20,000 nucleotides of DNA from an uncultured virus (IMG/VR IMGVR_UViG_3300042868_013692) (IMGVR_UViG_3300042868_013692); one strand, 5' to 3'. Counted from the first letter of the stretch, positions 49 through 19,094 are shown. Notes: generated from the letters alone by a model not told the origin. A program made the numbers and translations.

Positions 49-3000
49 TTATGCGATCGCTAATGCAGCCTGTTCTACGGCTTTTAATTCTGGTGTAGTC
101 ATGTAATTATTATAGGCAGCCAAGAAACTCATATTCCCGATAAATGTGCGATCATTTACACCATCTCCGCCAATACATTGGTATCCCTGGCTGCCAACAC
201 GATTACCAAAGCCTCTGCCTGTGTAAGAAGGGTGTAGTTCCGATCCAATATTCACACTGTCGACTCTTAGTGACGCTTTCCCAGTATTAGGGTTAAAAGT
301 TGCCGAAACAACAGCCCAAGTCCCATTTTTTCCGTATTCTTTGAATAGATTATATTGCTGGTTATTCGCACCGTAATTCGCTAGTAATAAACTATTATAA
401 ACAAACCCAAACACAGCTAGATTCCCTAGCGTCAAAATGTATTGAAATACTCTTCCGTTCGTGCGATTAATAACCGCAACGCAGGTAAATCCACGAGATA
501 TGTCAATTGGGCTTGAATCAGGCAAAACAAGCCTTTTGTGATTGTCCGTAAACCTGATTGTCGGCAGACCTCTTCGCAAAGCAGTCCCATCCGATGTTGG
601 ATTTTGACCTGTGGGAGCAACAACGTCATTTCCGTATCCACTCTGATCATTCCAACGAGTGACAATATTCCCAGCGTCAACAATCACCCCAGTATCATGG
701 CGTAGTAGCAATACAGGTCTGTAGACGTTTGCAAAAGTGGCTTGCGCTGGGGCTATTCGTGGTTCATCGCCTTTAACAATCATGTACTGAGGAATGGTTA
801 TTGTTTTACCAGCGTCCGCAGAGTTACAGATTAAAGTTCCGGTAGATCCATTCACCACGATTTCGTTAATTGCTGGGACAATAGCATCATTGGTGCGGAC
901 TGTCGCTGGAGTTCCATAGCCTGATATTTGGGCAGAGATAGGAATAACTTCTACATCAAGCCATCTAAAAGAAGGATCTGGGTTAGAACCACCGGCAGAA
1001 GATTTGCTCACTATTGCAGAATAAGGTTCTGCTGTAGAAATGGTAAGAGTTTCAGATACCGTTATTAATTCCGTTGGGCGCAAGTATGTTGATGCTTTAA
1101 TTGATACATTGTTGATATTGTCTTTTAGTACACCCAAGCAAACCACCTGAGTGTACCAATTCCCAGAAACAAAGCCTAAATTACCCAATTCTGTGAAATT
1201 AATAGTTAGTCCATCAATCAAGGTTTCCGTTGCTGCATGAGTCGGCTTGCCAGTTCTAGTAGCTTGAACCCATGCCGTGCCATTCCATGTTGGATCTGCC
1301 GACACCCAGGACGAAGTCCCCGGATTCCAGTGGAATGTCTCCCACACAAAGGGATTAAATACATTGCTCGTGTTTATTCCTGCACCAGTAATTCCTGTTA
1401 TTCTGTTTGCGTTGCCATATTTGTATATATAGTCACCGCTTTTATCCTTTTTCGATCCAAAAAATAGTCCATCGCCCAACCAGCAAACACTATCCCATAT
1501 ACTGTTGTATCTACTGTCTACCTCTGTCTGGTGCTGAAATAGAGTTGTTTTCCCTTCTTTAATGAATTTACCCGACAAGAGATACCCATTCTCGTCCAAT
1601 ATCGGAGTATCTCCTAGCAAGCCACTTGAATCGAAATCATTGTTGACAATCCATTCGCTAGTTGTTGTACCAAAAGTGAGAAGTATCCCTGAGTGTGTCC
1701 ACGTAGGGGTGGGGATGCTTGCGCTATACCATTGTCCTTTAGGAGAGGAAACGAGATATTTGGGCGAAGCTTGCCGTAGCGACAAAGCATTTGTATTAGT
1801 TGCTCCAGCAACACCAAATCCGTATCCGTTGGCAATACCACCAGATAAAGTCCACCACCATACAAGTGCGTTGTTATTTGATTGAGTGCCGAATAGAGCT
1901 ATTCTATTGGGTGCTGATTTGTCGGCAGTGATAAACCAAAGAGATCGATTGTCGCTTGAGTTGAGGTTTGATAGAGGGAATGTGAAAGTTAAATTTGTGT
2001 TCCAGTCTTGGCTATTTCGCAGGGTGAAAATTGCTCCATCCCAAAATAATGCGTACAGAATATTAGAGAATCCAGCACTAACACTTCGACACCCTGTAGT
2101 GACCAAATTAATAACTGCTGAGGAATTTCCAGGCGTTATTTCCCATAATCCGGTATTGTCACAGGCCGCATATATTTTCCCAGTCGCCAGAACAAATTCC
2201 ACATGACGAAGTGCTGTGACAGGCAAGGAAGGTTGTGTGCTGGAGTCCCAATCCTGGTGATCTCCATTGACAAGATTTATTATGCTTATCCCTGTACTGT
2301 CATGTCTGATAATTTGAGTTTTACTGTAGGCAATATCATGAGTTGTCTCTCCCGTGCCAGCATGATATCTGGGATAAGGCTTTCCGTTTGCAAGATTATT
2401 TTGGTGGGTAAAGATTGTTGCTAGTTCTATGTAATTAAAAGCATTGTCGTTGAAATGTGTCACTCTGCTTCTTTGAAAAACATAAGTAGCAGTACCTATA
2501 GAGCCAGAGTTTAGGATCTCAATTCTGTAAAGTTCGGGAAAATTATCCGCCCAAGAGCCTTGTATATTTGGTTTTCCACTGCCACTAGCCAAGTTGTTGC
2601 TATCTTGGAAAGGTAATGTGGCACTATTCCCATGTGAAAACATATTTTGGAACGGCGTGGATGTAGATTGATAATTAATGCTGCCAAATAGTTTACTTAC
2701 AGTTCTCCCGGCAATTCGATCTCTTGACGGTTCTGCTTGATATCCAGTCCCTATCATCGTGTAATATCTGCCTACCGATTTTGTATTTGGCACTGAAGCG
2801 ACAAAATCATATCGAGCTGCACCATACGCCTGTGTATGAACTTCCTCAGAATCATCGCTAAATTTGCGTACACCATCCCCATATACAAAAAAGTTAAGGC
2901 AAGACTTATTTGCCTCTTTAAAATTGCCATAAAGTAGCGGGAAAACAAAGTTGCGGATAGATGTATAAAAAGTTGAGTTCCACGAAAATCCATTCGCTCT

Positions 3001-3666
3001 ATTTATGGCATAAATCATGTCTTGGGAAATAGCAGGAACATTGTTATAGCCAGAGTAACTGCTAGGAAGCCTGATTCGGTAAGTAACGTCAATGATTTCA
3101 TTCTTTTTCTGCTGGATGTTAGAGCCAATATCTATATAAGCCCATATAGCACCAGATGTTCCACTGTTAGCTTGAGCGGCTGTGTGATCAATTGCTGAAG
3201 CGATGTTAGTTAATGCTATCGTTCTGAAAAATCGGTCAAAAGCAATGTTGGAGGGATACAAAGATCCCACAAATCCCAGTCTTTGTGATATTGTTATTTC
3301 TTCAACTATTCCATCATTATTGAAATCAATATAATTAGTTTTTGGACCAATGTTAATGGTATCCGTACTCGCAGTCCCAATAAAGTTACCAATCCAAAAT
3401 AAACTACGCTTCCCATTCCCAGGTGCTTCTGTGGAAAAAGAAATATTAAGTGAGGTTAGCCAAGGCAATATTATTCCTCCATAACCAATGTATTCATTTG
3501 CGTATGTACTATGTCTAGCGGTATAAGCTTCATTTATGAAACGATCAGTAATTGTATTTTCCTGTGTAATAGTTTGCCGAACCTCAAGAGTTTTAGCGTC
3601 TTTAATTTCTATTGTAAATTCGCCTTCTAATCCACCAAAATAATTAACAATTTGATTATTTTTCAT
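49..3666 (-). CDS. Large virion tail/baseplate-associated protein with C-terminal LamG/ConA-like domain
   Basis: 1205-aa ORF rich in G/T/S/N/W. N-terminus GEFTIEIKD...QENTITD resembles phage tail structural proteins; C-terminus LLLRHDTG...VTRWNDQSGYGND...LPTIRF resembles LamG-like jelly-rolls. Tightly linked to a fibre gene. Confidence 0.7.
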   Translation of the reverse strand: MKNNQIVNYFGGLEGEFTIEIKDAKTLEVRQTITQENTITDRFINEAYTARHSTYANEYIGYGGIILPWLTSLNISFSTEAPGNGKRSLFWIGNFIGTASTDTINIGPKTNYIDFNNDGIVEEITISQRLGFVGSLYPSNIAFDRFFRTIALTNIASAIDHTAAQANSGTSGAIWAYIDIGSNIQQKKNEIIDVTYRIRLPSSYSGYNNVPAISQDMIYAINRANGFSWNSTFYTSIRNFVFPLLYGNFKEANKSCLNFFVYGDGVRKFSDDSEEVHTQAYGAARYDFVASVPNTKSVGRYYTMIGTGYQAEPSRDRIAGRTVSKLFGSINYQSTSTPFQNMFSHGNSATLPFQDSNNLASGSGKPNIQGSWADNFPELYRIEILNSGSIGTATYVFQRSRVTHFNDNAFNYIELATIFTHQNNLANGKPYPRYHAGTGETTHDIAYSKTQIIRHDSTGISIINLVNGDHQDWDSSTQPSLPVTALRHVEFVLATGKIYAACDNTGLWEITPGNSSAVINLVTTGCRSVSAGFSNILYALFWDGAIFTLRNSQDWNTNLTFTFPLSNLNSSDNRSLWFITADKSAPNRIALFGTQSNNNALVWWWTLSGGIANGYGFGVAGATNTNALSLRQASPKYLVSSPKGQWYSASIPTPTWTHSGILLTFGTTTSEWIVNNDFDSSGLLGDTPILDENGYLLSGKFIKEGKTTLFQHQTEVDSRYNSIWDSVCWLGDGLFFGSKKDKSGDYIYKYGNANRITGITGAGINTSNVFNPFVWETFHWNPGTSSWVSADPTWNGTAWVQATRTGKPTHAATETLIDGLTINFTELGNLGFVSGNWYTQVVCLGVLKDNINNVSIKASTYLRPTELITVSETLTISTAEPYSAIVSKSSAGGSNPDPSFRWLDVEVIPISAQISGYGTPATVRTNDAIVPAINEIVVNGSTGTLICNSADAGKTITIPQYMIVKGDEPRIAPAQATFANVYRPVLLLRHDTGVIVDAGNIVTRWNDQSGYGNDVVAPTGQNPTSDGTALRRGLPTIRFTDNHKRLVLPDSSPIDISRGFTCVAVINRTNGRVFQYILTLGNLAVFGFVYNSLLLANYGANNQQYNLFKEYGKNGTWAVVSATFNPNTGKASLRVDSVNIGSELHPSYTGRGFGNRVGSQGYQCIGGDGVNDRTFIGNMSFLAAYNNYMTTPELKAVEQAALAIA

Positions 3667-3672
3667 GATTTT

Positions 3673-4425
3673 TTAGTTAAAAATTGTTCCTGCTGTAGAC
3701 CAAGTATACTGATTATTTGTTGTTGTTGTAGAGCTAATAAAGCTAGAGGTCTCTGCTATTTCGCCTAACGCATCTCTTTGAGAAATAGATGTAAAGAAGA
3801 AAACATCATTATTTGTCGTTGTAGTCTCAACTGGAAAAATTGAAGCCTCAAGCAGCGGTGATTCATAGGATTGGGTTGAAATTCCCGTATAGAAATAAAC
3901 ATCAGAATTTATGATTGAATTAACTCCAGCAAAGATGGATGCTTCAGCAGCTAATCCAGACACAACACCCGCTCCTATGAATCCAAGATCGGAAGGAGCT
4001 TCGTAAATTGGACTTGTTTTTATTTCCTGGTTTACATAATTATCAGCCTTGAAATATCCGACCAATCTGTAATTAGCTTTTACTCCAAAAATCCTCCTAA
4101 ATATCATATCTGTAGAAGTGTGGTAAAGCTTGTATTCCCCATCTAAATTCGCCCACACCTCTACTTTTGTTAAAAATTGACTCAGAAGTGACGGCATTAC
4201 GAAATATGCTGGTAGTTTTAGTGGGTCTGGCAAAACTATGATTGATGAATCAATTGCATCAATCCTTGGTAATGGATGTGAGCCAAGAATTAGCTGAGGT
4301 AATGCCATCGCATCTGGCGTAATTTCTAATAATTGATTTTGCAATATAGAAGGGACGGGCAAAGGCGCATAAAGTTTTTTATTGAAACCAATATCTGGGC
4401 GTTTCCACAAAAGATGTCTAAACAT
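3673..4425 (-). CDS. Hypothetical, probably virion structural protein
   Basis: 250-aa ORF packed between two tail genes (2- and 6-nt gaps); weak internal repeat EASIF...N(S/N)DV(Y/F)F(Y/F)T.IS. Confidence 0.65.
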   Translation of the reverse strand: MFRHLLWKRPDIGFNKKLYAPLPVPSILQNQLLEITPDAMALPQLILGSHPLPRIDAIDSSIIVLPDPLKLPAYFVMPSLLSQFLTKVEVWANLDGEYKLYHTSTDMIFRRIFGVKANYRLVGYFKADNYVNQEIKTSPIYEAPSDLGFIGAGVVSGLAAEASIFAGVNSIINSDVYFYTGISTQSYESPLLEASIFPVETTTTNNDVFFFTSISQRDALGEIAETSSFISSTTTTNNQYTWSTAGTIFN

Positions 4426-4427
4426 AA

Positions 4428-5885
4428 TCAGAAATCATTATTCATTACACAATACAAAATGTTGTCGCATGCAAACGAAGATATAATATCAACGCCATCA
4501 ATCGTAAATTCTGGAACTAATTTATTTGCAAACTTAAAAACACTTGGATCTAGTGTTAAGTTTCTGTCAAAACTATCTGAAAAAAACATAAAAATATAGC
4601 TCGCGCCTTGTACAAAATTTGTGCAAGTCAAGAAAGCATTAGAAAGATTTAAATTCACAATAAAGATATTGTTTTTGCCTAAATTTATGGACGTATTCGC
4701 TACTAGAGTGACGTTTACAATTGAAAATGGCGCAGAATTTAAAACTCCCAATACGTTTATTGTAAAATCATTGCCGACAATGATACCACCAAGTGTTGAT
4801 GTTGTGGCAATTGGTATGTCTAAATTAATATTGTCCTGGATATAATTTATGTCAACGGCAGTTAAGCCAGTGGCATCAACATCAAGCCCGTTACCGACAA
4901 TGATACCACCAAGTGCTGATGTTGTGGCAATTGGTATGTCTAAATTAATATTGTCCTGGATATAATTTATGTCAACGGCAGTTAAGCCAGTGGCATCAAC
5001 ATCAAGCCCGTCGCCGACAATGATACCACCAAGTGCTGATGTTGTGGCAATTGGTATGTCTAAATTAATATTGTCCTGGATATAATTTATGTCAACGGCA
5101 GTTAAGCCAGTGGCATCAACATCAAGCCCGTCGCCGACAATGACACCACCAAGTGTTGATGTTGTGGCAGGAACTAGGCCTCCACCTCCGTTGAATATTA
5201 AGTCAACGGGTATCCATTTTGAGCGATCGCTTGGTAATATGCCAACAATTCCATCATCTCTGCACACATAGCGGAAACCATTGTAAAGAACGGTATTTCC
5301 GACTCTGTATAGCTGAGTCCCGCTATAGTTTGATGTTGGAATTACTATTTCTAACATTGTCGCTAAAAATGCGGGATCTTTTTTAAGAATGTCTGCCACT
5401 TGCTTTGCCGTTTGAGGAGTTCTATCGTTCCAAAATCCAGTTTTTTCTAGGTCTGCAAAATCAACAGAATTCTTGTTGGGTATGGCAGCATAAAAAACCG
5501 GTTCTACCTCTACCTCTTCTGTATTGGTTTTCTTGTTTAAATGTATACTTTCATTTGTCCAAACATATCCAACATAATATTCGTTTTCGTGAAGAATATA
5601 CGGCAACTCGCCATCGTAACCATAGAAGTCACCATTGTCATAGTAAAAAGAGTTCGTGGTTGCTTTCTGAAAAATAGAAAAACTGTAAACCTGTTTTCTA
5701 GTTTCGGATTCAGGAAGTTCTAGTGAAAATCTTCCATTTATAATTTCGGCATCAAACTGAAGGGGAAGTGAAACTTTTTTTGGAGACTGAACACCGGAAA
5801 TTAGCGGCTGTAAAAGCTGAATTCTCAGAAAGCCGTTTATTGGATTTGACCCAGCATCTGCTATGTTTCCGCTTAAAAGTGTCAT
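4428..5885 (-). CDS. Tail fibre-like protein with 40-aa repeats and a CBM5/12-like motif
   Basis: 485 aa. Four ATTS(T/A)LGG(V/I)IVG units typical of phage fibre repeats; YSGTQLYRVGNTVLYNGFRYVC...W resembles a carbohydrate-binding module; small beta-rich C-terminal tip. Confidence 0.75.
   Translation of the reverse strand: MTLLSGNIADAGSNPINGFLRIQLLQPLISGVQSPKKVSLPLQFDAEIINGRFSLELPESETRKQVYSFSIFQKATTNSFYYDNGDFYGYDGELPYILHENEYYVGYVWTNESIHLNKKTNTEEVEVEPVFYAAIPNKNSVDFADLEKTGFWNDRTPQTAKQVADILKKDPAFLATMLEIVIPTSNYSGTQLYRVGNTVLYNGFRYVCRDDGIVGILPSDRSKWIPVDLIFNGGGGLVPATTSTLGGVIVGDGLDVDATGLTAVDINYIQDNINLDIPIATTSALGGIIVGDGLDVDATGLTAVDINYIQDNINLDIPIATTSALGGIIVGNGLDVDATGLTAVDINYIQDNINLDIPIATTSTLGGIIVGNDFTINVLGVLNSAPFSIVNVTLVANTSINLGKNNIFIVNLNLSNAFLTCTNFVQGASYIFMFFSDSFDRNLTLDPSVFKFANKLVPEFTIDGVDIISSFACDNILYCVMNNDF
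4773..5169. repeat. 120-bp tandem repeat, about 3.3 copies, inside the fibre gene
   Basis: Units start at about 4773, 4893, 5013 and 5133 (ccgacaatgataccaccaagtg...) and differ by only a few substitutions. Confidence 0.97.
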
Positions 5886-5936
5886 AAATATAAAATTATT
5901 TGTAAAATTATTATATTATTTTAGCGCAAAATTATC

Positions 5937-6287
5937 ATGGTAGAAAGAGCAACACCAAAATATCCAATACAGGTTTCAAATGGCAGAATTATGCTTTCTA
6001 CAGGAACAGATATTGAGAAGGATGCCATATTTAGCGTACTGGAAACAAGACAATATGAGCGTGTTATGCGACCACTTTCCTATGGAACTAAAAGCTATAT
6101 TTTCGATACAACCTCTGCTACATCTGTAATACCCGCGAGGGTTGAGGTGGCACTGCGATCGCAAATACCAAACCTTAGTAAAATCCAGGTCACCGGAAGC
6201 TTTGATGAAAGTGGTGTTCAACAATTAAAAATTTATTGGGAGGACAAGGATTTTAGGAAAAACGATCTCAAGCTATCTGTCTCTTAG
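5937..6287 (+). CDS. GPW/gp25-family baseplate wedge protein
   Basis: 116 aa with YPIQV.NG, AIFSVLETRQYERVMRP.SYGT and ALRSQIP, matching the gp25 pattern (ILxTxxGERxMRPxYG); indicates a contractile tail. Confidence 0.85.
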   Translation: MVERATPKYPIQVSNGRIMLSTGTDIEKDAIFSVLETRQYERVMRPLSYGTKSYIFDTTSATSVIPARVEVALRSQIPNLSKIQVTGSFDESGVQQLKIYWEDKDFRKNDLKLSVS

Positions 6288-6294
6288 TTTCGTG

Positions 6295-6668
6295 TTACAG
6301 ACGTATTACAAGAGTTTTAAATACAGGCGTGTGTTTGCACAATATATTGATTTTAATCAAAAATAAAGTAAAGGGAAGATGATCACTTTCTTATAGGAAA
6401 CTGCCCTTTTTTCTTTGTATCTTCCCTTTACTTTTGACACGCTTTATGTTATACTCCGCCACAGATTTTTCAACGAGAGAATGCGGGTTTGAGGCGTGTT
6501 ACAAGATTCGTGTTTTGGCGGCATTGTGACAGGTTGGAAGCGAATGCCAGTTTTGTGGTTTTGGGGACGGCGTTGGGGAGAATGCAACTAAAACCGGAAA
6601 CCTTGCTGTGCGGGGATTACAATATGTTTCTAGCCTGTGTGGATATATCGGCACACCAAATTTTTAGC
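6295..6668 (+). ncRNA. Structured non-coding element, copy 1 (putative ncRNA or single-strand DNA signal)
   Basis: About 90% identical to 17989-18200 over the first ~213 nt, with weaker similarity to 18360. Several hairpins, e.g. perfect 16-bp arms 6365-6380/6419-6434; substitutions mostly keep pairing. Confidence 0.6.
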
Positions 6669-6702
6669 GTGATCGCAACATAAAAATATTTTTCAGAAAC
6701 AC

Positions 6703-6731
6703 TTGACTTTTGTTGTTAGCCATAGTATTAT
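6703..6731 (+). promoter_or_regulatory. Sigma70-type promoter
   Basis: TTGACT-N17-TATTAT, then an A-rich leader and ATG at 6764. Confidence 0.75.
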
Positions 6732-6763
6732 ATTTACAGAAACAAACACAGAAAGAGAGAAAT

Positions 6764-6988
6764 ATGGTAGGCAAAAAAATCACAAAAGTAACCCAAGAGA
6801 ATTATGACACCGTGTGGGAAAAGCTAGAGGTTGGCGACATTATTACATGGAGCAAACAGTTTGCGTTCCATGATATGAAATTCCACTGTAGGAGAATTAC
6901 GGACGACAAAAAAAGCTGTATGCAGACTGGCACAACAGGCAGTAAGTCGGCAGTAATATGTTTAGTAAAAGAGAAAAAAGCGGCTTAA
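6764..6988 (+). CDS. Small hypothetical phage protein (74 aa)
   Basis: ATG at 6764 lies downstream of the promoter; ORF is followed by a hairpin. Confidence 0.65.
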   Translation: MVGKKITKVTQENYDTVWEKLEVGDIITWSKQFAFHDMKFHCRRITDDKKSCMQTGTTGSKSAVICLVKEKKAA

Positions 6989-6996
6989 CCTTTATG

Positions 6997-7050
6997 TAAA
7001 AGTCAAGCTGTATTTCACAAATTAATTTATAAAATACAGCTTGACTTTTA
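6997..7050 (+). terminator. 19-bp perfect inverted repeat, probable terminator overlapping the next -35 box
   Basis: taaaagtcaagctgtattt (6997-7015) / aaatacagcttgactttta (7032-7050), just after the 6988 stop. Confidence 0.65.
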
Positions 7051-7069
7051 TTGTTGTCCACAGTAATAT
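7041..7069 (+). promoter_or_regulatory. Sigma70-type promoter
   Basis: TTGACT-N17-TAATAT, A-rich leader, ATG at 7101. Confidence 0.7.
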
Positions 7070-7100
7070 AGATGCAGTAGAAAAAAACAAAAAAACGAAA

Positions 7101-7379
7101 ATGAGTAAAACACAAATTACGCACGAAGATGCTACAACGGAATTGTTAAGGGGGAAACAAATAATAGTAAAAATTCACGATGGTGAATTTAAATACAAAT
7201 TTGTGACAGGCTCTAGCGACACTTCATACTTAGAGATAATTTCTCCCAATGGCAGCTTATTTAGTAAACGGGCTATCGAAAGGACTGATCTTCCTAAGAG
7301 AATGGAAGAAGCAAATTCTCTTCCTCACGTTACATTTTGGACAAAAGATATAGTTGTACAAGAAGCGGAGAAATTATGA
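7101..7379 (+). CDS. Small hypothetical phage protein (92 aa)
   Basis: ATG after the promoter; ATGA overlap with the next ORF. Confidence 0.7.
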   Translation: MSKTQITHEDATTELLRGKQIIVKIHDGEFKYKFVTGSSDTSYLEIISPNGSLFSKRAIERTDLPKRMEEANSLPHVTFWTKDIVVQEAEKL

Positions 7380-7615
7380 AAAAAACAAGGCGACAATTAA
7401 CGCCTCAAGAACATAGACTTAGGGAGTATGTATTGGTTTTAAAAGACTTGCAGACTTTAGTAAATATGGAGTTAGAAAATTTTTATGAAATTCCAACAAC
7501 TAAAGACTTGTTGCCTCCATTAAAATCAGTTCCAGAAACTGCTCTAAGGTTAATAGTTGCATCGGAAAGATATAGAGGGTTTCTGGAAGCGCAAGAAGGG
7601 AAAGAAAGTCTCTGA
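7376..7615 (+). CDS. Small hypothetical protein (79 aa)
   Basis: ATGA coupling at 7376-7379 with the previous gene. Confidence 0.65.
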   Translation: MKKTRRQLTPQEHRLREYVLVLKDLQTLVNMELENFYEIPTTKDLLPPLKSVPETALRLIVASERYRGFLEAQEGKESL

Positions 7616-7810
7616 TTCTCTGTAATAATTTCGATAGCAGCATTAAAAAGCTGGCAAGCTGATTTAACAGTTTTTAACTGGTCAGCCTCACACACAATAA
7701 TAATCCCACACGCAGGTATTTTAGATTGAATCCCCATAGACTCAAGTGCTTTAACTATCGCTAGAGCATTGGTGTATGAACCTGCGGAAATAAAAACAAT
7801 TTACGTACAT

Positions 7811-7864
7811 ATATTTTAATGTAGTATAACGTTATTATAATAGCGTTATACTACATTAAAATAT
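7811..7864. repeat. 54-bp near-perfect loopless palindrome overlapping the terminase start codon
   Basis: 21-bp perfect arms (7811-7831/7844-7864), one T/G mismatch, palindromic core TATTATAATA. Confidence 0.95.
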
Positions 7865-9434
7865 GAAAACAATAACCCCTAACTTTGACCATTTTACGCA
7901 ACTAAACAAGCTTCAGAAGAATTGTGATGTTTATATTAAAAATAATTATCAAACCGTAAAAGACCCGCAAACAGAAGAGAAAAAGCTTCTTTATGAAAGT
8001 TCATTGTATGAGTTTTTTAAGGCATCTTGGCACGTAATTGAGCCAGGGAAAGACATATATTTAAATTGGCATCAAGAGGCTATATGCGAATACTTAGAGT
8101 ATTTTAACAAAGGGCATATTAATAAATTATTAATAAATATAGCACCAAGACACCTTAAAAGCATTATTGTTACGATTAATTTTCCTGTTTGGGAATGGTT
8201 ATCAGATCCCACGCTTAGATATTTGTGCTTGTCATACTCATCAAGATTGAGCGTGAAGCATAATTTGAAGCGCAGAACGATCATTAGATCAAACTGGTTT
8301 CAGAGTTTGTGGGGACATAAATTCGAGTTAAGTGGCGACAACAACCTTAAAACTGAATTTTCCAACAACTTCCAGGGTCAAATGTTTGCCTCATCGTTTG
8401 GAGGAACTGTTCTTGGGGAAGGGGGCGATCGCATTATTGTTGATGACCCTCATCACCCCGAAGAATTGGAATCTGACAATGTGCGCGAAGGAACTGTCTC
8501 TGAGTTTGATGATGTCGTCGGAACGCGGCTTAATGACCCCAACAAAGGGGGAATTATAACGGTTATGCAAAGATTACACGATAAAGATATTTCGGGGCAT
8601 ACGTTGGCAGAAATTGGGGGATACACCCACTTATGCTTGCCAACTATAGCCGAGGAAGACCAGCGGATTATATTCCCAATGTCTGGCAGGTATGTTGACA
8701 GAAAAAAAGGAACTCTTTTACATGAGGAGCGTTTTGGTTGGTCAAAAGTCAAAGATGCTCAAAAAGTCCTTGGTTCTTACAAGTTCGCAGGTAGACATCA
8801 ACAGCGACCAGTCCCTGCTTCCGGTGGTATTGTTTCGCCAGAATGGATTGTAAGGTACAAAAACTTACCGGCATTAAAAAGAATTATACAAAGTTGGGAC
8901 ACAGCCCAAAAAGACAAAACAGAGAACGACAATTGGGCTTGCACAACCTGGGGTGAAAGCTATGATCGAGACTATTATTTAATTCACAGTTTTATTGGAA
9001 AATTTGATTATGTGAAGGGCAAAAGAGCATTCTGTAGTTTGTACGATTCCTTCTTGCCGGATGTCATTTTGATAGAAGATAAATCTACTGGCTCAAGCCT
9101 TATTCAAGAGGCAAGAAAACCTATAATTTTAGATGGTGGGGAAAAAATAATCAAAATTGATTCCTGGATAGTTGGCATAATTCCGAAACAAAACAAAGAA
9201 GTTAGAATGGAGGTCGAGGCTACAGCTTACGAGAACAAGCGTGTACATCATCCGTATGATTCTCCCTGGTTAGCAGAATACGAGAGGGATTTATTTAATT
9301 TTCCCAAGGGAGTAAAAGACAGTATTGATAGTACAAGTCAGTTTTTGGGCTGGGTTCGCCAAAATATCCGCGATGGTGTTGCCAACGCAAGTTCAGAAAG
9401 CGAAACCGAGAACATTCTGCAAATGTTGAGATAA
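7863..9434 (+). CDS. terL: Phage terminase large subunit
   Basis: 523 aa: NWHQEAICEYL, Walker A-like INIAPRHLKS, Walker B IIVDDP, MQRLH..D, nuclease motifs SWDTA, IEDKSTG, FPKG..DSIDSTSQ. Confidence 0.95.
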   Translation: MKTITPNFDHFTQLNKLQKNCDVYIKNNYQTVKDPQTEEKKLLYESSLYEFFKASWHVIEPGKDIYLNWHQEAICEYLEYFNKGHINKLLINIAPRHLKSIIVTINFPVWEWLSDPTLRYLCLSYSSRLSVKHNLKRRTIIRSNWFQSLWGHKFELSGDNNLKTEFSNNFQGQMFASSFGGTVLGEGGDRIIVDDPHHPEELESDNVREGTVSEFDDVVGTRLNDPNKGGIITVMQRLHDKDISGHTLAEIGGYTHLCLPTIAEEDQRIIFPMSGRYVDRKKGTLLHEERFGWSKVKDAQKVLGSYKFAGRHQQRPVPASGGIVSPEWIVRYKNLPALKRIIQSWDTAQKDKTENDNWACTTWGESYDRDYYLIHSFIGKFDYVKGKRAFCSLYDSFLPDVILIEDKSTGSSLIQEARKPIILDGGEKIIKIDSWIVGIIPKQNKEVRMEVEATAYENKRVHHPYDSPWLAEYERDLFNFPKGVKDSIDSTSQFLGWVRQNIRDGVANASSESETENILQMLR

Positions 9435-9436
9435 AA

Positions 9437-9470
9437 AATAATCGTGAATTAAATTTAATTCACGATTATT
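9437..9470. terminator. 34-bp perfect palindrome between convergent genes
   Basis: aataatcgtgaattaaatttaattcacgattatt equals its own reverse complement and starts 2 nt after the terL stop. Confidence 0.7.
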
Positions 9471-9498
9471 GTATAATCAGCTATTTTATTGTAGATAA

Positions 9499-9936
9499 TT
9501 AATACAGAAAATGTATAGAGCATTGGATAACCTCAATGCCTAAAACACTTTTAACTTTCAAAATCTTGGTGAAACTAGAATTAGCATATCCATTAGCCTC
9601 ATCACGCTGCACCTGTTGTTCCTTCACATTTAAAAGTTCTGCTAATTGTCCCTGAGTTAAACCACGAAAAATCCGGGCTTTAATAAGTGCTTCTGGTAAT
9701 TCTTCTAAAGACTTACATTCCAACCTATCTATTTTCCTTGATTTGAGGTTTTCATATTCCTCCACTTGTTCTAATAGTTCTTCTATTTCACCATTGAGTG
9801 AAGCTAAATATGATTGATGTCGTAACTTTTCATTTTCATTATCTTGTGGGGGATCTTTTTCCAAATTTTCTGTTGCTGATTGAAATTTTTTAATCTGAGA
9901 TTTAGTAATCATGTATTGGCGTTCATTTAAGATCAT
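9499..9936 (-). CDS. XRE-family HTH protein (HigA-like antitoxin/regulator)
   Basis: MILNERQY.ITK N-terminus; C-terminal HTH LIKARIFRGLTQGQLAELLNVKEQQVQRDEAN.Y. Confidence 0.85.
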   Translation of the reverse strand: MILNERQYMITKSQIKKFQSATENLEKDPPQDNENEKLRHQSYLASLNGEIEELLEQVEEYENLKSRKIDRLECKSLEELPEALIKARIFRGLTQGQLAELLNVKEQQVQRDEANGYANSSFTKILKVKSVLGIEVIQCSIHFLY

Positions 9937-9990
9937 GGTTAGCGTCCTTAGTTAGTATTTGTTCTGTATAGAGATATCATGCTTTAACAA

Positions 9991-10122
9991 TTACCATTGT
10001 TCAAGCGGAAGACTGTAATCTAGAGTTTCAAGCCCGTTATGCCAAGGAACTGTTTTAAAGTTTTGCAGAATAGCACTGATCTTTTCATTTCTTGTGAGTT
10101 CTTTGCTTTTTGGTGCTGACAT
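9991..10122 (-). CDS. Small hypothetical ORF (43 aa, MSAPKSKELTRNEK...), not in the ORF track
   Basis: Manually translated; preceded by an A-rich leader and a consensus promoter. Confidence 0.5.
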   Translation of the reverse strand: MSAPKSKELTRNEKISAILQNFKTVPWHNGLETLDYSLPLEQW

Positions 10123-10161
10123 ATATTTTTGTTTTTGCTTGTGTTTTTTGCTTCTTTATAT

Positions 10162-10190
10162 AGCATATACCACTGGATAACAAAAGTCAA
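10162..10190 (-). promoter_or_regulatory. Sigma70-type promoter
   Basis: TTGACT-N17-TATGCT on the minus strand. Confidence 0.65.
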
Positions 10191-10199
10191 CAAAATACT

Positions 10200-10640
10200 T
10201 TATGCACTGTTCTCGTTCATTGACAAATTTTTGATTGATTTTATGCAATTTTCAGCATAAGAAGAATCATAAAGTTTTCCTGCTGGTATTCTTACGACAA
10301 CAAAGCCATTACGAGCAAACAAAGAGTTGCGTATAGCATCCTTAACTTTGTCTTGATGGTATGCAGCACCATCAATTTCAACGACTATTTTTTTAGCACC
10401 AAAGATTAAAAAATCTGCCTCTCTGAACGCAAAAGATCCGTCACGTTGTTGAAGCTGCATTCTTACGTTTACGCCAAATACAAAACCAGCGTCTCGCAGC
10501 ATTTCGGCAAACTTTACCTCTGCGGGTGAACGGAATATAAAAAAGGAGGTTAGGTCATTCTTATCAAAGCCTCCTTGTTCTACAATTTGTTGTGATTTTA
10601 ATTCGAGTGTTTCTCTGGTTTCGTGTATTGTGTTGTTCAT
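10200..10640 (-). CDS. DUF559 / Vsr-like PD-(D/E)xK endonuclease-domain protein
   Basis: RSPAEVKF, READFLI, IVVEIDG.AYH, D..RN..F...GFVVVRI. Confidence 0.85.
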   Translation of the reverse strand: MNNTIHETRETLELKSQQIVEQGGFDKNDLTSFFIFRSPAEVKFAEMLRDAGFVFGVNVRMQLQQRDGSFAFREADFLIFGAKKIVVEIDGAAYHQDKVKDAIRNSLFARNGFVVVRIPAGKLYDSSYAENCIKSIKNLSMNENSA

Positions 10641-10696
10641 TTTGTTATTTGTTAAGATAACAATATCTTAACATAATTATTTAAAACTCATTACAC

Positions 10697-10825
10697 TCAA
10701 AAACAGAATATTTTCTTTTGGTAGCTGAACTTTTCCCAATTATACCCAAGGGGTCGCAAATTTTCTTGAACATAGAAATTTCTACCCCTATAAACAACAC
10801 TGCAATCAAATTCTTGTATTGGCAT
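10697..10825 (-). CDS. Small hypothetical ORF (42 aa, MPIQEFDCSVVYRG...)
   Basis: Manually translated; lies downstream of the promoter at 10853-10881. Confidence 0.35.
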   Translation of the reverse strand: MPIQEFDCSVVYRGRNFYVQENLRPLGYNWEKFSYQKKIFCF

Positions 10826-10852
10826 TTTTGCTCACCCGCTTTTCATGTCTTT

Positions 10853-10881
10853 ATTTTACCACAAGCAAAATATTAAGTCAA
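10853..10881 (-). promoter_or_regulatory. Sigma70-type promoter
   Basis: TTGACT-N17-TAAAAT with an extended TG. Confidence 0.65.
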
Positions 10882-11004
10882 TATTGTTGCAATATTAATT
10901 TAGTGTGATATAATATTGATGTAGGGAAAAATTAAATTAGGAGAATTACAGTGCTTTGAATAAACATTCTGCGAAAAGTCTTAAACAAACCAAAAAATGT
11001 TGCT

Positions 11005-11196
11005 GTGGCGACAAATAAAGTTAGTTCTGGTAAACATTTAAAACAATTCAATGACGGCATTGATTTATTTTACCAAAGTGTCAATTGTCCACCAGAAGAC
11101 ACAGCCACGAAAGACGGCTGGCTGTGCGCCGAAAGAATATGGAAAATAAAAAACGACTTACTTCTGGATAGTCGTAAAAAATTTAATTTGGTTTAG
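11005..11196 (+). CDS. Small hypothetical protein, possibly 5'-damaged
   Basis: 63-aa ORF. An in-frame GTG at 10951 with a GGAG upstream is followed by TGA at codon 3. Confidence 0.45.
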   Translation: MATNKVSSGKHLKQFNDGIDLFYQSVNCPPEDTATKDGWLCAERIWKIKNDLLLDSRKKFNLV

Positions 11197-11457
11197 TGGT
11201 AATTGGACATTACTCAAATGCCCTAATTAATTTTATAAAACTATGGAAACGGAAACTTTCATTTACCAAGATTATCTAATCGAGTTGTCATATTGCAATA
11301 TGGCAATTTTTACCATTCTAAAGTTTTCAAAGGTGGTAAAAAATATGATTCCTGTCAGTCAGAAGACAAAGAAGATTGTTTGAGACAAGCAAAGAGTATT
11401 GTCGAGTTTTCAATTGAGTGCGATGCAATTAATTGTCAGGAATATTGCCTAAAAAAT

Positions 11458-12066
11458 ATGTCACTACAACTTTCTTTATTTAGTTTAAGCAACGTGGTCG
11501 AACACCCGCATTACATCTACTATCCAGATTTTTTAGATACTAATACGGCAACCAATTTTTTCATGGAGTTTGTTGATTTAGATTGGCGACAAAATCAAAT
11601 GTACATTAATCAAAAAATGATTGATGTACCAAGAAAAGAGTGTCTTTATGGTGATACAGATACATCATACAAATACGCAAACATTGAGATGAGAGCAAAG
11701 ACATGGAATCCACCACTTTTATCTTTGCGAAGCAAAATAATGGAGGTATTTGACTACAAATTTAACATCGTGTTTGGCAACCTTTACAACGACGGGAACA
11801 GTAGTATTGGTTGGCACAGCGATGATGACAGCCGGATGGGTGTAGATCCGGCGATCGCATCAGTTTCTTTTGGTGCTATTCGCAAATTTAGTTTTATGGA
11901 AAAAGAGAGTAGGCAGACTGAAAGTTTGTGGTTAGAACATGGGTCTTTGTTGATTATGAAAGAAGGTTGCCAACGGACACATTTACACTCACTACCGAAA
12001 ACAAAAAAGATTATTGGGCAGCGAGTGAATCTGACCTTTAGATCCTTTTGGTGGATTCAGCCATGA
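11458..12066 (+). CDS. alkB: AlkB-like 2OG-Fe(II) dioxygenase (ALKBH2/3-type)
   Basis: NLYNDG.SSIGWHSDD (HxD), IASVSFGAIRKF, LEHGSLLIM, HSLPK, RVNLTFR. Likely start at MSLQLSLF (11458) rather than 11293. Confidence 0.92.
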   Translation: MSLQLSLFSLSNVVEHPHYIYYPDFLDTNTATNFFMEFVDLDWRQNQMYINQKMIDVPRKECLYGDTDTSYKYANIEMRAKTWNPPLLSLRSKIMEVFDYKFNIVFGNLYNDGNSSIGWHSDDDSRMGVDPAIASVSFGAIRKFSFMEKESRQTESLWLEHGSLLIMKEGCQRTHLHSLPKTKKIIGQRVNLTFRSFWWIQP

Positions 12067-12086
12067 GAGTGTCAATTTGTAAAGTC

Positions 12087-12137
12087 AGATATTAATGCAA
12101 TATTGGTTGACATTAAATTAATATTGCATTAATATCT
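12087..12137 (+). promoter_or_regulatory. Promoter embedded in an 18-bp perfect inverted repeat
   Basis: Arms 12087-12104/12120-12137. TTGACA (12107-12112) sits in the loop, with N17 then TAATAT (12130-12135) in the right arm. Confidence 0.75.
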
Positions 12138-12168
12138 TGAAAGAAGATAACAAAACAAAAACAACAAA

Positions 12169-12636
12169 ATGCGAACAACAATCATCAAGATGTACAACGA
12201 ACTCACACCCTCCTTACAAGGTGTTGTAAGTAAGATTTTAGAGGAAGCCGAGTCTTCATTTGGATCTTCAAACTATTTAACACTTGTAGCCAAAACTTTG
12301 ATTAAAAACTTAGTTGAAACAAACCCAGAAAATACCCTCGTCCAAGGAATATTTGTTTCTTCAATTCCTGACGACATTACAAATGAGGAGCTAGATTGGG
12401 AGACAACATTTGCTTATATGAAAAAAAGAAAAAACATTTTTGACGATTTTTGTTTTTTTGTTTTTAAGCCAATTATTGAATATCTCCTTGGTATTAAAAT
12501 AGAAAAAAGTTTAAATGAAGACCAGAAAAAAGCTCTTGGCACTGCGATCGCTGTTGCTGCCATTATTCATTTTTCAAATTTAAGAGTTGAAATAAAAGAT
12601 AAATGGCATCTTTTCCCACACTTAGAAGAAAAATAA
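12169..12636 (+). CDS. Hypothetical protein (155 aa)
   Basis: ORF with its own promoter, A-rich leader and downstream terminator. Confidence 0.7.
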   Translation: MRTTIIKMYNELTPSLQGVVSKILEEAESSFGSSNYLTLVAKTLIKNLVETNPENTLVQGIFVSSIPDDITNEELDWETTFAYMKKRKNIFDDFCFFVFKPIIEYLLGIKIEKSLNEDQKKALGTAIAVAAIIHFSNLRVEIKDKWHLFPHLEEK

Positions 12637-12665
12637 GTACATTATTTTGCCAATAAAGCACTGAC

Positions 12666-12714: not shown

Positions 12715-12724
12715 TATAAAAAAA

Positions 12725-17935: not shown

Positions 17936-17964
17936 ATAATACTATGGCTAACACATAAAGTCAA
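17936..17964 (-). promoter_or_regulatory. Sigma70-type promoter, near-identical to 6703-6731
   Basis: TTGACT-N17-TATTAT; 29/32 nt identical to the promoter at 6702-6733. Confidence 0.75.
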
Positions 17965-17988
17965 GCGCATTTTTAATTTATTTTCATA

Positions 17989-18360
17989 TTACAGGCGTAT
18001 TACAAGAATTTTGGATACAGGCGTGTGCTTGCACAATATATTGATCAAAATCAAAAATAAAATTGGGAAGATGATCACTTTCTTATAGGAAACTGCCCTT
18101 TTTTCTTTGCATCTTCCCTTTACTTTTGGTACGCCTTATGTTATACTCCGCTTCAGTTTTTTCAACGAGAGAATGTGGGTTTGAGGCGTGTTACAAGATT
18201 GGGATTTTATCGGCGTTAGTCTAGGTTGTGGACAAATGTTTGTTTGGTGGTTTTGGGGACGGCTGCGGGGAGCGATCGCTAAAAACACAAAACCCTTGCT
18301 GTGCGGATATTGCAATATGTTTTTTGTCGCCAAGGTTGGGCAGACTTTAGATTTTTTAGC
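17989..18360 (+). ncRNA. Structured non-coding element, copy 2
   Basis: Direct-repeat homologue of 6295-6668 with the same hairpins. Confidence 0.6.
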
Positions 18361-18395
18361 CGACGGTACGGGCGTTGACGGGATGCTGGTACAAA

Positions 18396-19094
18396 TATGA
18401 AAGTGGCACTGGAGCAAAGGATAATGGAACAAATTATTTCGTTTTAGCTAGTATTGCTATCTATGAAAAAGATTACTCAAAAAATTATGAAGAAATTTCC
18501 GCGCTCAAACGAAGTATTGTTAAAACAAAAGAACCTGAAGATTGGGAGTTAAAAGGTAACAAACTTTGTAAAGGGAAAGAACTCTTTAAAGGCTGAAACT
18601 TTGAAGCTCGTGTTCGTACATTTGTAACTATATCAGAAACTTTGAATAAAATCCCATGCCATATATCTTCTATTATAGTCAATAAAAAATTACTATATGA
18701 AAATAGAGAATTGTTGAAAGATGATATTACACTTTACCGTTTTACCTTCTACCGTTTATTAAAAGAATTAGATAGTTTTCTGAAATCCTCCAATGAAAGT
18801 GGAATTTTATTTTTGGACTCACGTTCAACACACAGTACAGGGAAACAAGATGATCGTTTGGTCAGGGCTTACAGAGAGTGGGTAAAATCACGAAAACATG
18901 ATTGTAATTTTGTAGAACAGCCCTGGTTAGGTGCTTCACAATTTTATGTAGGTCTACAATTAGCAGATTACGTTGCTTGCTTGATTAGTTTGAAGACACA
19001 AAATATGCAAAAAGATGATCGTAATTTTGGATTTTTAGAAGCTTTCGATATTTTAAAGGATAAAATTCATTTAGTTGAAATTCCTGAAAACTAG
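18396..19094 (+). pseudogene. DUF3800-family protein, 5'-truncated with an in-frame stop
   Basis: ESGTG..YFVLASIAI, WELKG, LFLDSR, GLQLADYVA motifs. ORFs 18375 and 18642 share a frame, separated by TGA at 18594-18596; the usual DESG reads YESG with no proper start. Confidence 0.85.

What the first reader, a model, noticed from the sequence alone, without database searches (positions are those of the whole stretch)
6295..6668. Duplicated ~375-nt structured non-coding element with pairing-preserving substitutions: candidate new phage ncRNA or ssDNA signal
Seen: 6295-6668 recurs at 17989-18360 in the same orientation, with about 20 differences in the first ~213 nt and more after. The differences mostly keep plus-strand helices intact. 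GACACGCTTT/GAGGCGTGTT (6436-6445/6491-6500) becomes GGTACGCCTT (A-U to G-U, C-G to U-G, U-G to C-G). GGGAAGATG pairs with TATCTTCCC in one copy and CATCTTCCC in the other. CCGC/GCGG becomes CCGC/GTGG, GGCATT/AATGCC becomes GGCGTT/AATGTT, and GTATT/AATAC becomes GTATT/GATAC. TTGAT/ATCAA is kept while its loop changes (TTTA vs CAAA); TGTG-YTTG-CACA is a tetraloop hairpin; a long GTTTTGG/CTAAAA stem encloses a conserved GGGGA loop. One outer stem (AAAGTAAA) is partly lost in copy 2. Inference: selection acts on a folded single strand, not on a protein. I recognise no tRNA, intron, riboswitch, IS end or CRISPR pattern. Options are a large phage ncRNA (e.g. packaging- or virion-related), a single-strand origin or ssDNA promoter, or a non-autonomous mobile unit.
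Basis: partly seen in the sequence, partly recalled or inferred. Interest (0 to 1): 0.85.

Follow-up and report, generated by a model that had tools for sequence, protein, structure and literature searches.

The report
Repeated cyanophage promoter cassette with non-coding arrays
The duplicated stretch is one of about eleven copies per genome of a phage cassette, made of a hairpin, a strong promoter and one to six non-coding G/T-rich tandem units; it is probably transcribed, but nothing shows that it works as a conserved RNA fold.

Summary
The repeat is real. Window 6284-6632 recurs at 17978-18322 in direct orientation at about 84% identity, and it is non-coding. The window comes from an uncultured freshwater myovirus-like cyanophage. 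A 138-kb near-identical record holds 10 loci of the same family, covering 3.9% of that record.

Each cassette has these parts, in order:
- two direct TRTTACA repeats;
- a 9-bp inverted repeat flanked by T-runs;
- a sigma-70-type extended -10 promoter (TTTACT-17-TGnTATAMT);
- a conserved leader;
- 1-6 tandem units of 157-161 bp, G+T-rich.

The cassette points against the genes on both sides at 7 of the 10 loci, and some arrays end at hairpin terminators. I read it as a terminator-promoter cassette that launches a non-coding repeat RNA.

Covariation over 12-16 paralogues does not exceed shuffles. Folding z-scores are -1.3 for copy 1 and +1.3 for a three-unit array.

There is no match in Rfam, GenBank phages, plasmids or species-representative prokaryote genomes.

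The copies vary in unit number and swap flanks between strains, which resembles T4-type PeSL cassettes.

What the RNA or DNA does is still open. Direct evidence of expression is lacking.

The parts
6293..6312 (+). Copy 1: two direct TRTTACA repeats 11 bp apart (TGTTACAGA, TATTACAAG). A third copy of the motif lies at 6497-6505.
   Evidence: Regex hits. The block is conserved in all 16 paralogues of alignment A4.
6373..6426 (.). Copy 1: 9-bp inverted repeat GGGAAGATG / TATCTTCCC with a 36-nt spacer and T-rich runs on both sides. It looks like a bidirectional terminator and lies directly upstream of the promoter.
   Evidence: Seven of the nine arm pairs never vary, one is broken in 1 of 16 rows, and the ninth is G-C in 8 and G-U in 8 rows. 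In the most diverged paralogue (G002 44k) the arms are kept while the spacer has diverged.
6427..6455 (+). Copy 1: promoter PA, TTTACT - 17 nt - TATACT with TG before the second hexamer (extended -10).
   Evidence: Consensus scan. The same site is found at copy 2 and, as TATAAT, at the six-unit array. A regex for the site finds 8 places in G002 and 2 in the window. Activity was not measured.
6462..6508 (+). Copy 1: leader of the predicted transcript. The start near 6462 is inferred from the -10 box. It ends in GGCGTGTTACAAGATT (6493-6508), which is invariant in all paralogues.
   Evidence: Alignments A2 and A4. The first ~30 nt of the leader are also kept at the cassette copy in G002 at 26.4 kb, whose body is unrelated; at 93.6 kb the sequence after the promoter is unrelated.
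6509..6632 (+). Copy 1: a single G+T-rich repeat unit in the 'first unit' form. It contains the G-block GGACGGCGTTGGGGA (6565-6579) and the conserved end block CCTTGCTGTGCGGGGATTACAATATGTTT (6601-6629).
   Evidence: It is homologous to the tandem 159-nt units of G001 1-691 and of the G002 arrays.
6637..6668 (+). Copy 1: short GTGTG/CACAC hairpin followed by a T5 run. It may be a weak terminator and is not shared with copy 2.
   Evidence: Read directly from the sequence. The terminator scan did not list it.
6703..6731 (+). P2-type promoter TTGACT-17-TATTAT in front of ORF 6764-6988. It is the inverted partner of 17936-17964.
   Evidence: inverted repeat I1. About 9 sites of the core GTTARCCRTAG occur in G002, 4 of them away from PA cassettes.
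17936..17964 (-). Copy 2: divergent P2-type promoter TTGACT-17-TATTAT driving ORF 17897-17556.
   Evidence: The same divergent arrangement is seen at other cassettes.
17987..18006 (+). Copy 2: two direct TRTTACA repeats.
18065..18118 (.). Copy 2: inverted repeat GGGAAGATG / CATCTTCCC.
18119..18147 (+). Copy 2: promoter PA, TTTACT-17-TATACT with TG (extended -10).
18154..18322 (+). Copy 2: leader (invariant block at 18185-18200) and first unit (G-block at 18257-18271, a HIP1 site at 18272-18279, end block at 18294-18322).
18323..18396 (+). Copy 2: start of a further, incomplete unit. It matches the inter-unit part of the tandem array at the start of G001.
   Evidence: blastn of window 18282-18396 against G001 1-114, 87.8%.

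Best explanation
The two copies belong to a family of about eleven intergenic cassettes in one lineage of a large freshwater cyanophage.

Each cassette is a composite regulatory unit. An inverted-repeat hairpin with T-runs acts as a terminator or insulator. It is followed directly by a host-type (sigma-70, extended -10) promoter, often back to back with a second, divergent promoter for the neighbouring gene.

In 8 of the 10 loci of the 138-kb record the cassette includes one or more tandem non-coding units of about 159 nt, 21 in all; in 7 of these a conserved leader and the promoter stand in front of them, and the eighth (74.5 kb) is a remnant without the promoter. The units are G+T-rich and only weakly structured. 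The predicted transcript ends at a terminator or runs into a convergent gene.

What is shown: the repeat family, its anatomy, its non-coding nature, the consensus promoter, the orientation rules, the strand-skewed composition and its instability between strains.

What is inferred: that host RNA polymerase fires from these promoters early in infection; that the repeat RNA acts through short conserved sequence blocks (as a sponge, decoy or antisense RNA) rather than through a conserved fold; and that the cassettes also serve, like PeSLs, as points of homologous exchange.
For: Family and origin:
- nhmmer finds 25 hits forming 10 loci in G002 (5,369 of 138,383 bp, 21 units).
- All 14 of 14 metagenome loci found with a two-block pattern match the family profile. 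At least nine carry flanks that lie in G002; five have no flank match to the incomplete G002.
- The phage nature rests on terminase, portal, capsid, sheath, tube and baseplate hits.

Promoter: TTTACT/TTGACT-17-TGnTATAMT is found by the scan at all three cassettes tested and by regex at 8 G002 sites and 2 window sites.

No coding:
- Several units have stops in all six frames.
- Unit spacing is 157-161 nt.

Own transcription unit:
- At 7 of 10 G002 loci the cassette points against the ORFs on both sides.
- The six-unit array ends in a long hairpin followed by a T-run.
- The copy at 26.4 kb drives an unrelated ORF-less body of about 190 nt up to a strong hairpin.
- No promoter-like site lies on the array strand inside the five internal units.

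Constraint on sequence blocks: in the 70%-identical paralogue the hairpin arms, the -35 and -10 boxes, the 27-nt leader block and the unit end block are kept while the rest has diverged.

Not fold-based.

Exchange: L062 joins a flank of the 116k locus to a flank of the 81k locus. L063 has extra units at the 116k locus. L065 lacks 374 nt of the 54k array. G001 has 4.4 units where the window has one.
Against: There is no direct proof of transcription, of the start site or of the strand.
- The metatranscriptome material was Logan contigs only, at depth about 3. That is no higher than the flanking genes.
- One RNA-library contig begins about 60 nt upstream of the predicted start.
- The tool itself warns that presence in these libraries does not show transcription.

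Not every array ends in a canonical terminator. The 42k array has a hairpin without a following T-run.

The TRTTACA motif occurs both upstream of the promoter and inside the transcribed part. That pattern suits a DNA-binding reader better than an RNA one.

All copies are paralogues of one lineage that probably homogenise each other. Conservation among them is therefore weak evidence of selection, and the lack of covariation is weak evidence against a fold.

ORF neighbours come from my own longest-ORF caller, not from a gene finder.
Confidence: 0.5

Rival explanations
1. A structured non-coding RNA (or folded single-stranded DNA signal) whose helices are kept by compensatory substitutions.
For:
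- The GGCATT/AATGCC helix is 94.8% paired over 16 paralogues. All six of its pairs vary on one side only, as A-U/G-U or G-C/G-U, which works on the + strand only.
- The + strand folds far better than the - strand: -58.9 against -26.4 kcal/mol for copy 1, and -325.5 against -196.1 for a 1-kb array.
Against:
- RNAalifold on 12 first units gives a covariation term of +0.55 kcal/mol with 2 of 36 pairs compensatory. Its own structure scores 0.113 against 0.121 in shuffles, and 402 of 500 reach it.
- On 14 internal units, 3 of 36 pairs are compensatory.
- z-scores are -1.31 for copy 1 (21 of 200 shuffles fold as well) and +1.34 for three units.
- The strand difference in folding energy follows from the G+T richness.
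Confidence: 0.1
2. A DNA-level array of protein-binding sites. A phage (or host) DNA-binding protein reads the direct TRTTACA/ATTGCAAT motifs around the promoter and once per 159-bp unit. It would work as an operator, looping or spreading system that controls the divergent promoters, or as a partition- or packaging-type site.
For: - The motif sits in the same orientation twice upstream of the promoter, once at about +35, and once at the end of every unit. All of these are kept in the most diverged paralogue.
- The unit end contains an 8-12 bp palindrome, ATTGCAAT or ATATTGCAATAT.
- The 159-bp period is close to 15 helical turns.
- A 15-nt G-block is inverted in one paralogue. A double-stranded site tolerates this; an RNA motif does not.
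- The phage encodes two Cro/CI-type HTH proteins.
Against: - The motif is short and A+T-rich, so it is unspecific in a 62% A+T genome. My enrichment argument is post hoc and rests on hand arithmetic only.
- No binding protein is linked to the cassettes: the neighbouring genes are not paralogous.
- The strong G-over-C strand skew tied to promoter direction is not expected for a pure double-stranded site.
Confidence: 0.15
3. Transcription-primed R-loop zones. The promoter drives a G-rich transcript that stays hybridised to the C-rich template and starts replication or recombination, in the manner of T4 oriF/oriG or ColE1-type origins.
For: - A promoter is followed directly by sequence that is G-rich on the non-template strand.
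- The arrays are the strongest GC-skew outliers of the 138-kb record, with 32 G3+ runs against 4 C3+ runs in 952 nt.
- There are several loci per genome, and the copies are exchange points.
- A 24-nt patch of a unit was copied into an unrelated gene.
- T4 origins are a promoter plus a downstream element that forms persistent R-loops (PMC3016281, passages read).
Against: - The T4 downstream unwinding element is A+T-rich. Here the arrays have 49% G+C against 37.6% for the genome.
- There is no canonical G-quadruplex motif with loops up to 12 nt.
- The cassette copies at 26.4 kb and 93.6 kb have unrelated bodies after the promoter, and the 26.4-kb body does not look G-rich by eye (composition not computed).
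- Eleven origins would be many for one phage.
Confidence: 0.1
4. Functionless repeated DNA. A promoter-bearing intergenic segment has spread by homologous or illegitimate recombination, and its tandem part expands and contracts neutrally.
For: - Unit numbers differ between genomes that are otherwise 99.7-99.96% identical.
- One locus is a remnant without the promoter (G002 74.5 kb).
- One paralogue is decayed to 70% identity.
- There is no fold signal.
Against: - The cassettes take up 3.9% of a compact phage record.
- Conservation is very uneven, with invariant blocks next to diverged ones in the oldest paralogue.
- The promoter boxes are intact at every site the regex finds, 8 in G002 and 2 in the window.
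Confidence: 0.1

Closest known systems
PeSLs (promoter-early stem-loops) of T4-type myoviruses. PMC2839356: abstract and passages read. PMC4122927: abstract read.
   Same: Both are multi-copy intergenic cassettes that combine a strong sigma-70-like promoter with a stem-loop terminator. In both, the copies act as points of homologous exchange that shuffle flanking genes between close relatives.
   Different: PeSLs are conserved over about 100 bp and end in the Shine-Dalgarno sequence and start codon of the next gene. Here the conserved part is about 350 bp and the promoter mostly faces no gene but a non-coding leader and 1-6 tandem 159-nt units. The phage is not a close T4 relative: its TerL is at most 36% identical to that of any isolate.
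NsiR1 tandem small-RNA array of heterocystous cyanobacteria. PMC4030482: passages read.
   Same: Both are tandem direct repeats of a non-coding unit, in a Nostocales setting. The host is only hinted at, by a source's name for a 99%-identical protein.
   Different: NsiR1 is a 60-nt RNA and each of its 12 copies has its own promoter. Here the units are about 159 nt, no promoter-like site lies inside the internal units, and one promoter precedes the whole array. Neither NsiR1 nor any other Rfam family matches.
T4 oriF/oriG R-loop origins. PMC3016281: passages read.
   Same: A promoter whose transcript covers a defined downstream element, present at several loci per phage genome.
   Different: The T4 downstream element is A+T-rich and not repeated. 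Here it is G-rich, richer in G+C than the genome, and tandemly repeated.
RNA anti-CRISPRs (Racrs, solitary CRISPR-repeat mimics in phages). PMC10651486: search listing and start of abstract only.
   Same: Small non-coding repeat-like units carried by a phage, behind their own promoter.
   Different: Racrs mimic the host's CRISPR repeat, which is tens of nt long. The units here are about 159 nt with no spacer-like variable part, and I could not compare them with any host CRISPR repeat.
Promoter-proximal duplicated RNA elements of lambdoid phages (nut sites; HK022 put RNAs). Recalled; no call made.
   Same: A sequence duplicated just downstream of more than one phage promoter.
   Different: Those elements are short (17-70 nt), precede long operons and have defined hairpins. 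Here there is mostly no operon downstream and no conserved fold.

Membership tests
PeSL-type regulatory cassette | Strong sigma-70-like promoter | tested here: met
   TTTACT-17-TATACT/TATAAT with TG was found at the 3 cassettes scanned and by regex at 8 G002 and 2 window sites. This is a consensus match only; strength was not measured.
PeSL-type regulatory cassette | Adjacent stem-loop able to terminate transcription | tested here: inconclusive
   The 9-bp inverted repeat has T-runs on both sides, and 7 of its 9 arm pairs never vary in the 16 paralogues. However, its 36-nt spacer is outside the terminator scan's loop limit, so the scan did not list it. Function was not tested.
PeSL-type regulatory cassette | 3' end carries the Shine-Dalgarno sequence and start codon of the downstream gene | tested here: not met
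   At 7 of 10 G002 loci the next ORF is on the other strand. The promoter is followed by a leader and units with no conserved ORF.
PeSL-type regulatory cassette | Copies mediate exchange of flanking sequence between close relatives | tested here: met
   The flanks of L062 come from two different G002 loci, with the crossover inside the element. L063 and L065 differ in unit number. Mini-circles were not testable.
Any Rfam family | Covariance-model match | tested here: not met
   In the window at E<=1, 7 weak hits were found and none is on the element. In 60 kb of G002 that include six of its ten loci (the six-unit and both four-unit arrays among them), at E<=0.1, the only hits were 3 tRNAs.
Structured ncRNA with a conserved fold | Covariation above background | tested here: not met
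   2-3 compensatory pairs of 36-57, and shuffles reach the observed score in 97 and 402 of 500 trials. Depth is limited to paralogues of one lineage.
Structured ncRNA with a conserved fold | Folding energy below that of composition-matched shuffles | tested here: not met
   z = -1.31 for copy 1 on the + strand, +1.75 on the - strand, and +1.34 for a three-unit array.
NsiR1-like tandem sRNA array | Each repeat carries its own promoter | tested here: not met
   No promoter-like site lies on the array strand within L028 669-1450.
T4-type R-loop origin | A+T-rich unwinding element downstream of the promoter | tested here: not met
   The arrays have 49% G+C against 37.6% for the record. The defining feature is taken from PMC3016281.
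CRISPR array / Racr | Likeness to a host CRISPR repeat; repeat-spacer period of about 60-75 bp | not testable with these tools
   The period is 157-161 bp with no variable spacer.
MITE / IS-derived element | Terminal inverted repeats and target-site duplication | not tested
   None was noticed at the aligned ends, but I made no formal search.

The most novel reading that the evidence does not exclude
The phage devotes about 4% of its genome to at least 8 early-promoter units that flood the cell with a tandem-repeat, G/U-rich, weakly structured RNA, at least 21 units per genome. This RNA would act as a multivalent sponge or decoy for a host RNA-binding or defence protein. Alternatively, through its G-rich hybrids with the template, it would seed replication or recombination. 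Either would be a kind of phage take-over RNA not yet described.
Probability: 0.18. Interest if true: 0.8.

Novelty: new variant of a known kind. Interest (0 to 1): 0.45.

Why it matters
Phage genomes are compact. Eleven copies of a 350-bp cassette plus arrays of up to six non-coding units behind consensus promoters are therefore unlikely to be idle.

If the arrays are expressed, this would be a phage-borne tandem-repeat RNA family in a bloom-forming cyanobacterial system. It would also give a handle on early host take-over in a phage group with no cultured relative.

If they are mainly exchange points, they extend the PeSL idea of mobile regulatory cassettes outside the T4-like phages, and they explain why assemblies of this phage break and rearrange at these sites.

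The case also shows that pair-keeping differences between two copies of a G+T-rich repeat are not evidence of a fold.

Tried and rejected
- **Expression.** One run search and one laying of reads. The three RNA libraries were available only as assembled contigs at depth about 3. They cover parts of the phage and part of one paralogue (the 116k copy), with no strand, start or level, and one contig begins upstream of the predicted start. No conclusion either way. The summed DNA-contig depth over 6352-6495 (140 against 7-13 beside it) fits many copies, but the tool warns that it is not a copy number.
- **Homologues outside the lineage.** None were found in GenBank phages, PLSDB plasmids or species-representative genomes (two exact patterns). 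In IMG/VR, a 16-nt pattern gave 22 loci. 10 match the profile at E < 1e-90, all in the same three contigs, and the other 12 show no real match, the best at E = 5e-4. Phylogenetic depth for covariation was therefore not obtainable.
- **TerL relatives.** The nearest non-self protein is 79% identical and lies on a contig of at most 4.7 kb, which I could not fetch. Exact-peptide scans found only relatives at 30-32% identity.
- **Antisense target.** The only match of array RNA elsewhere in the phage is a perfect 24-nt antisense stretch inside ORF G002 45558-46286. Homologues at 87-89% identity carry a different peptide exactly there. I therefore read it as a patch copied from a unit into the gene, not as an ancestral target.
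- **Coding repeat.** Rejected.
- **G-quadruplex.** No motif with loops up to 12 nt.
- **NtcA site.** By eye the GTA/TAC spacing is 9, not 8, and GTA is GCA in about half of the copies. Rejected.
- **Linked gene family.** The ORFs next to the cassettes are not paralogous.
- **Host CRISPR-repeat mimicry.** Could not be tested.

Full report
**Observation**

- The repeat finder links 6284-6367, 6373-6580 and 6598-6629 with 17978-18061, 18065-18272 and 18291-18322 at 85-88% identity.
- blastn gives 83.8% over 351 nt, E 7e-89.
- In 6295-6507 I count 18 mismatches and 2 gap columns in 213 columns. In 6508-6632 there are 39 mismatches in 126 columns. After 6632 the likeness fades.
It is a promoter-like TTGACT-17-TATTAT that lies after copy 1 on the + strand and before copy 2 on the - strand.

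**Where the window lies**

The window's own assembly is not held.
- Virus record G001 (42 kb) is 99.96% identical to window 1-17850.
- A 138-kb IMG/VR record, G002, is 99.7% identical to window 1-17535.
- Of 118 ORFs of 90 aa or more in G002, PHROGs name terminase large subunit (window 7863-9434), portal, protease, scaffold, major head, sheath, tube, baseplate and tail fibre proteins. They also name helicases, clamp loader, ribonucleotide reductase and five methyltransferases. This is a large myovirus-type phage.
- The closest isolate TerL is 36% identical. The closest non-self protein in 5.8 billion is 79% identical, on a short contig.
- HIP1 sites (9 in the window) point to a cyanobacterial host. 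So does a source's name for a 99%-identical phage protein, a MAG of Aphanizomenon flos-aquae. The host is not shown.

**Census of the family**

A profile of eight full copies finds 25 hits in G002, forming 10 loci:

| G002 locus | Content |
|---|---|
| 11.7 kb | copy 1 of the window, 1 unit |
| 26.4 kb | hairpin and promoter, unrelated body |
| 42 kb | 4 units |
| 44 kb | 2 units, 70% identity |
| 54 kb | 4 units |
| 72 kb | 2 units |
| 74.5 kb | remnant without promoter |
| 81 kb | 6 units |
| 93.6 kb | hairpin and promoter, unrelated body |
| 116 kb | 1 unit |

- Together these cover 5,369 of 138,383 bp and hold 21 units.
- Window copy 2 lies beyond the start of G002 and makes an eleventh locus.
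- G001 starts inside a 4.4-unit array of period 159.
- All 14 metagenome loci found with a two-block pattern match the family profile. At least nine carry flanks that lie in G002; five (L059, L061, L068, L070, L072) have no flank match to the incomplete G002.
- Nothing was found in GenBank phages, plasmids, species-representative genomes or Rfam.

**Anatomy, from 5' to 3'**

1. Often a divergent P2-type promoter for the neighbouring gene.
2. Two direct TRTTACA repeats 11 bp apart.
3. Small inverted repeats that are not kept among paralogues.
4. The inverted repeat GGGAAGATG/YATCTTCCC, with T-runs on both sides.
5. Directly after it, promoter PA: TTTACT (TTGACT in two copies) - 17 nt - TATAMT, with TG one base before the second hexamer. 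The scan finds it at all three cassettes tested and a regex finds it at 8 G002 and 2 window sites.
6. A leader that ends in the invariant GGCGTGTTACAAGATT.
7. One to six units of 157-161 nt, each ending in CCTTGCTGTGCGG..ATTRCAATATGTTTTT.

**A non-coding transcription unit**

- Several units have stops in all six frames, and unit spacing breaks any frame.
- At 7 of 10 G002 loci the cassette points against the ORFs on both sides, so the promoter faces the 3' end of a convergent gene. The ORFs come from my own caller.
- The six-unit array ends in a long hairpin followed by a T-run, and a hairpin follows the 54k array.
- At 26.4 kb the same hairpin, promoter and first ~30 nt of leader precede an unrelated ORF-less stretch of about 190 nt that ends in a strong hairpin. 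At 93.6 kb the hairpin and a TTGACT promoter again precede unrelated sequence.
- No promoter-like site lies on the array strand inside the internal units.
- I infer one promoter per array, a start near 6462 in copy 1, and an RNA of about 0.2 to 1 kb. None of this was measured.

**Is a fold conserved?**

I found no sign of one.
3 pairs change on both sides against a shuffle mean of 2.4. 97 of 500 shuffles reach the covariation score.
- RNAalifold on 12 first units gives -13.97 kcal/mol with a covariation term of +0.55 and 2 of 36 compensatory pairs. Its structure scores below the shuffle mean, and 402 of 500 shuffles reach it.
- On 14 internal units, 3 of 36 pairs are compensatory.
- Folding z-scores are -1.31 for copy 1, +1.75 for its complement and +1.34 for three units.
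- The large strand difference in energy follows from composition: 31-34% G and about 29% T on the RNA-like strand. G-U 'rescue' is therefore the expected outcome of transitions.
- One helix, GGCATT/AATGCC, stays 94.8% paired through one-sided changes only. I regard this as suggestive, no more.
- All sequences are paralogues of one lineage, so the test has little depth.

**Composition and DNA-level readings**

- The arrays are the strongest GC-skew windows of G002, up to 0.39 against a mean of 0.10. They have 49% G+C against 37.6% for the record, and 32 G3+ runs against 4 C3+ runs in 952 nt.
- There is no canonical G-quadruplex motif.
- A T4-type origin needs an A+T-rich downstream element, which is not met here.
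- The TRTTACA/ATTGCAAT motifs lie on both sides of the promoter and once per 159-bp unit. A 15-nt G-block is inverted in the 44k paralogue. Together these keep a protein-binding DNA reading alive.

**Dynamics**

- Near-identical genomes differ in unit number: 1 in the window against 4.4 in G001. L063 has extra units at the 116k locus, and L065 lacks 374 nt of the 54k array.
- L062 joins a flank of the 116k locus to a flank of the 81k locus, with the crossover inside the element.
- Assemblies G001, G003 and G004 begin or end in elements.
- A perfect 24-nt stretch of a unit sits in antisense inside ORF G002 45558-46286. It lies exactly where homologues of 87-89% identity have a different peptide. 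I read it as a copied patch.
- ORFs next to the cassettes are not paralogous, so it is the intergenic cassette itself that is repeated.

**Comparison and verdict**

In behaviour the hairpin-plus-promoter core matches the PeSL cassettes of T4-type phages: a strong promoter, an adjacent stem-loop, many copies and exchange of flanks. It is not a member of that family. It does not end in a gene start, it is three times longer, and the phage is unrelated.

I found no description of tandem non-coding units behind such a cassette. The two literature searches aimed at this returned the PeSL papers and one unrelated paper.

I rate it a new variant of a known kind.

Noticed in passing
L026:5768-5791 (G002 45768-45791), inside ORF L026:5558-6286:+: A perfect 24-nt copy of a repeat-unit segment lies in antisense inside a 242-aa ORF of unknown function (E 4.6e-7). 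The ORF reads TQQGFRVF there, where homologues of 87-89% identity read TDED-GVA or a near variant. It looks like a templated patch copied from a unit. As a side effect, this mRNA would be complementary to the array RNA.
   Followed up: yes
window 4773-5169 (inside ORF 4428-5885, - strand): Three overlapping copies of a 157-nt repeat with 120-bp spacing (97% identity) lie inside a 485-aa ORF. The window and G001 place this array differently, so its copy number probably varies.
   Followed up: partly
window 18375-19094: Two adjacent + strand ORFs (73 and 150 aa) match the first and second halves of DUF3800. This is probably one gene split by a stop or frameshift, lying directly downstream of copy 2.
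   Followed up: no
window 6703-6731, 17936-17964; G002 22.5, 42.9, 48.0, 79.9, 81.8, 86.9 and 115.9 kb: A second repeated promoter class, TTGACT-N6-GTTARCCATAG-TAWTAT, has about 9 sites in G002. Some lie beside the cassettes and 4 lie away from them. This is probably the phage's standard early promoter.
   Followed up: partly
window 7811-7864, 6997-7050, 9432-9475, 12666-12714: Long perfect or near-perfect palindromes with 22-27 nt arms and 0-5 nt between the arms. One ends at the TerL start codon, and one carries TTGACT on both strands. They may be terminators or operators.
   Followed up: no
window 13276-14694: An ORF fuses a ParB N-terminal domain to an N6/N4 DNA methyltransferase. It is one of five methyltransferases in the phage.
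   Followed up: no
L026:4149-4660 (G002 44149-44660, - strand): In the most diverged paralogue a 15-nt G-block is inverted, reading CCCCGCAGCCG where the others read CGGCTGCGGGG. It is therefore exactly complementary over 11 nt to the same block in the next unit.
   Followed up: partly
L026:10130-10552, L027:1282-1354: The phage carries four tRNA genes: Asn, Asp, Glu and Met.
   Followed up: no
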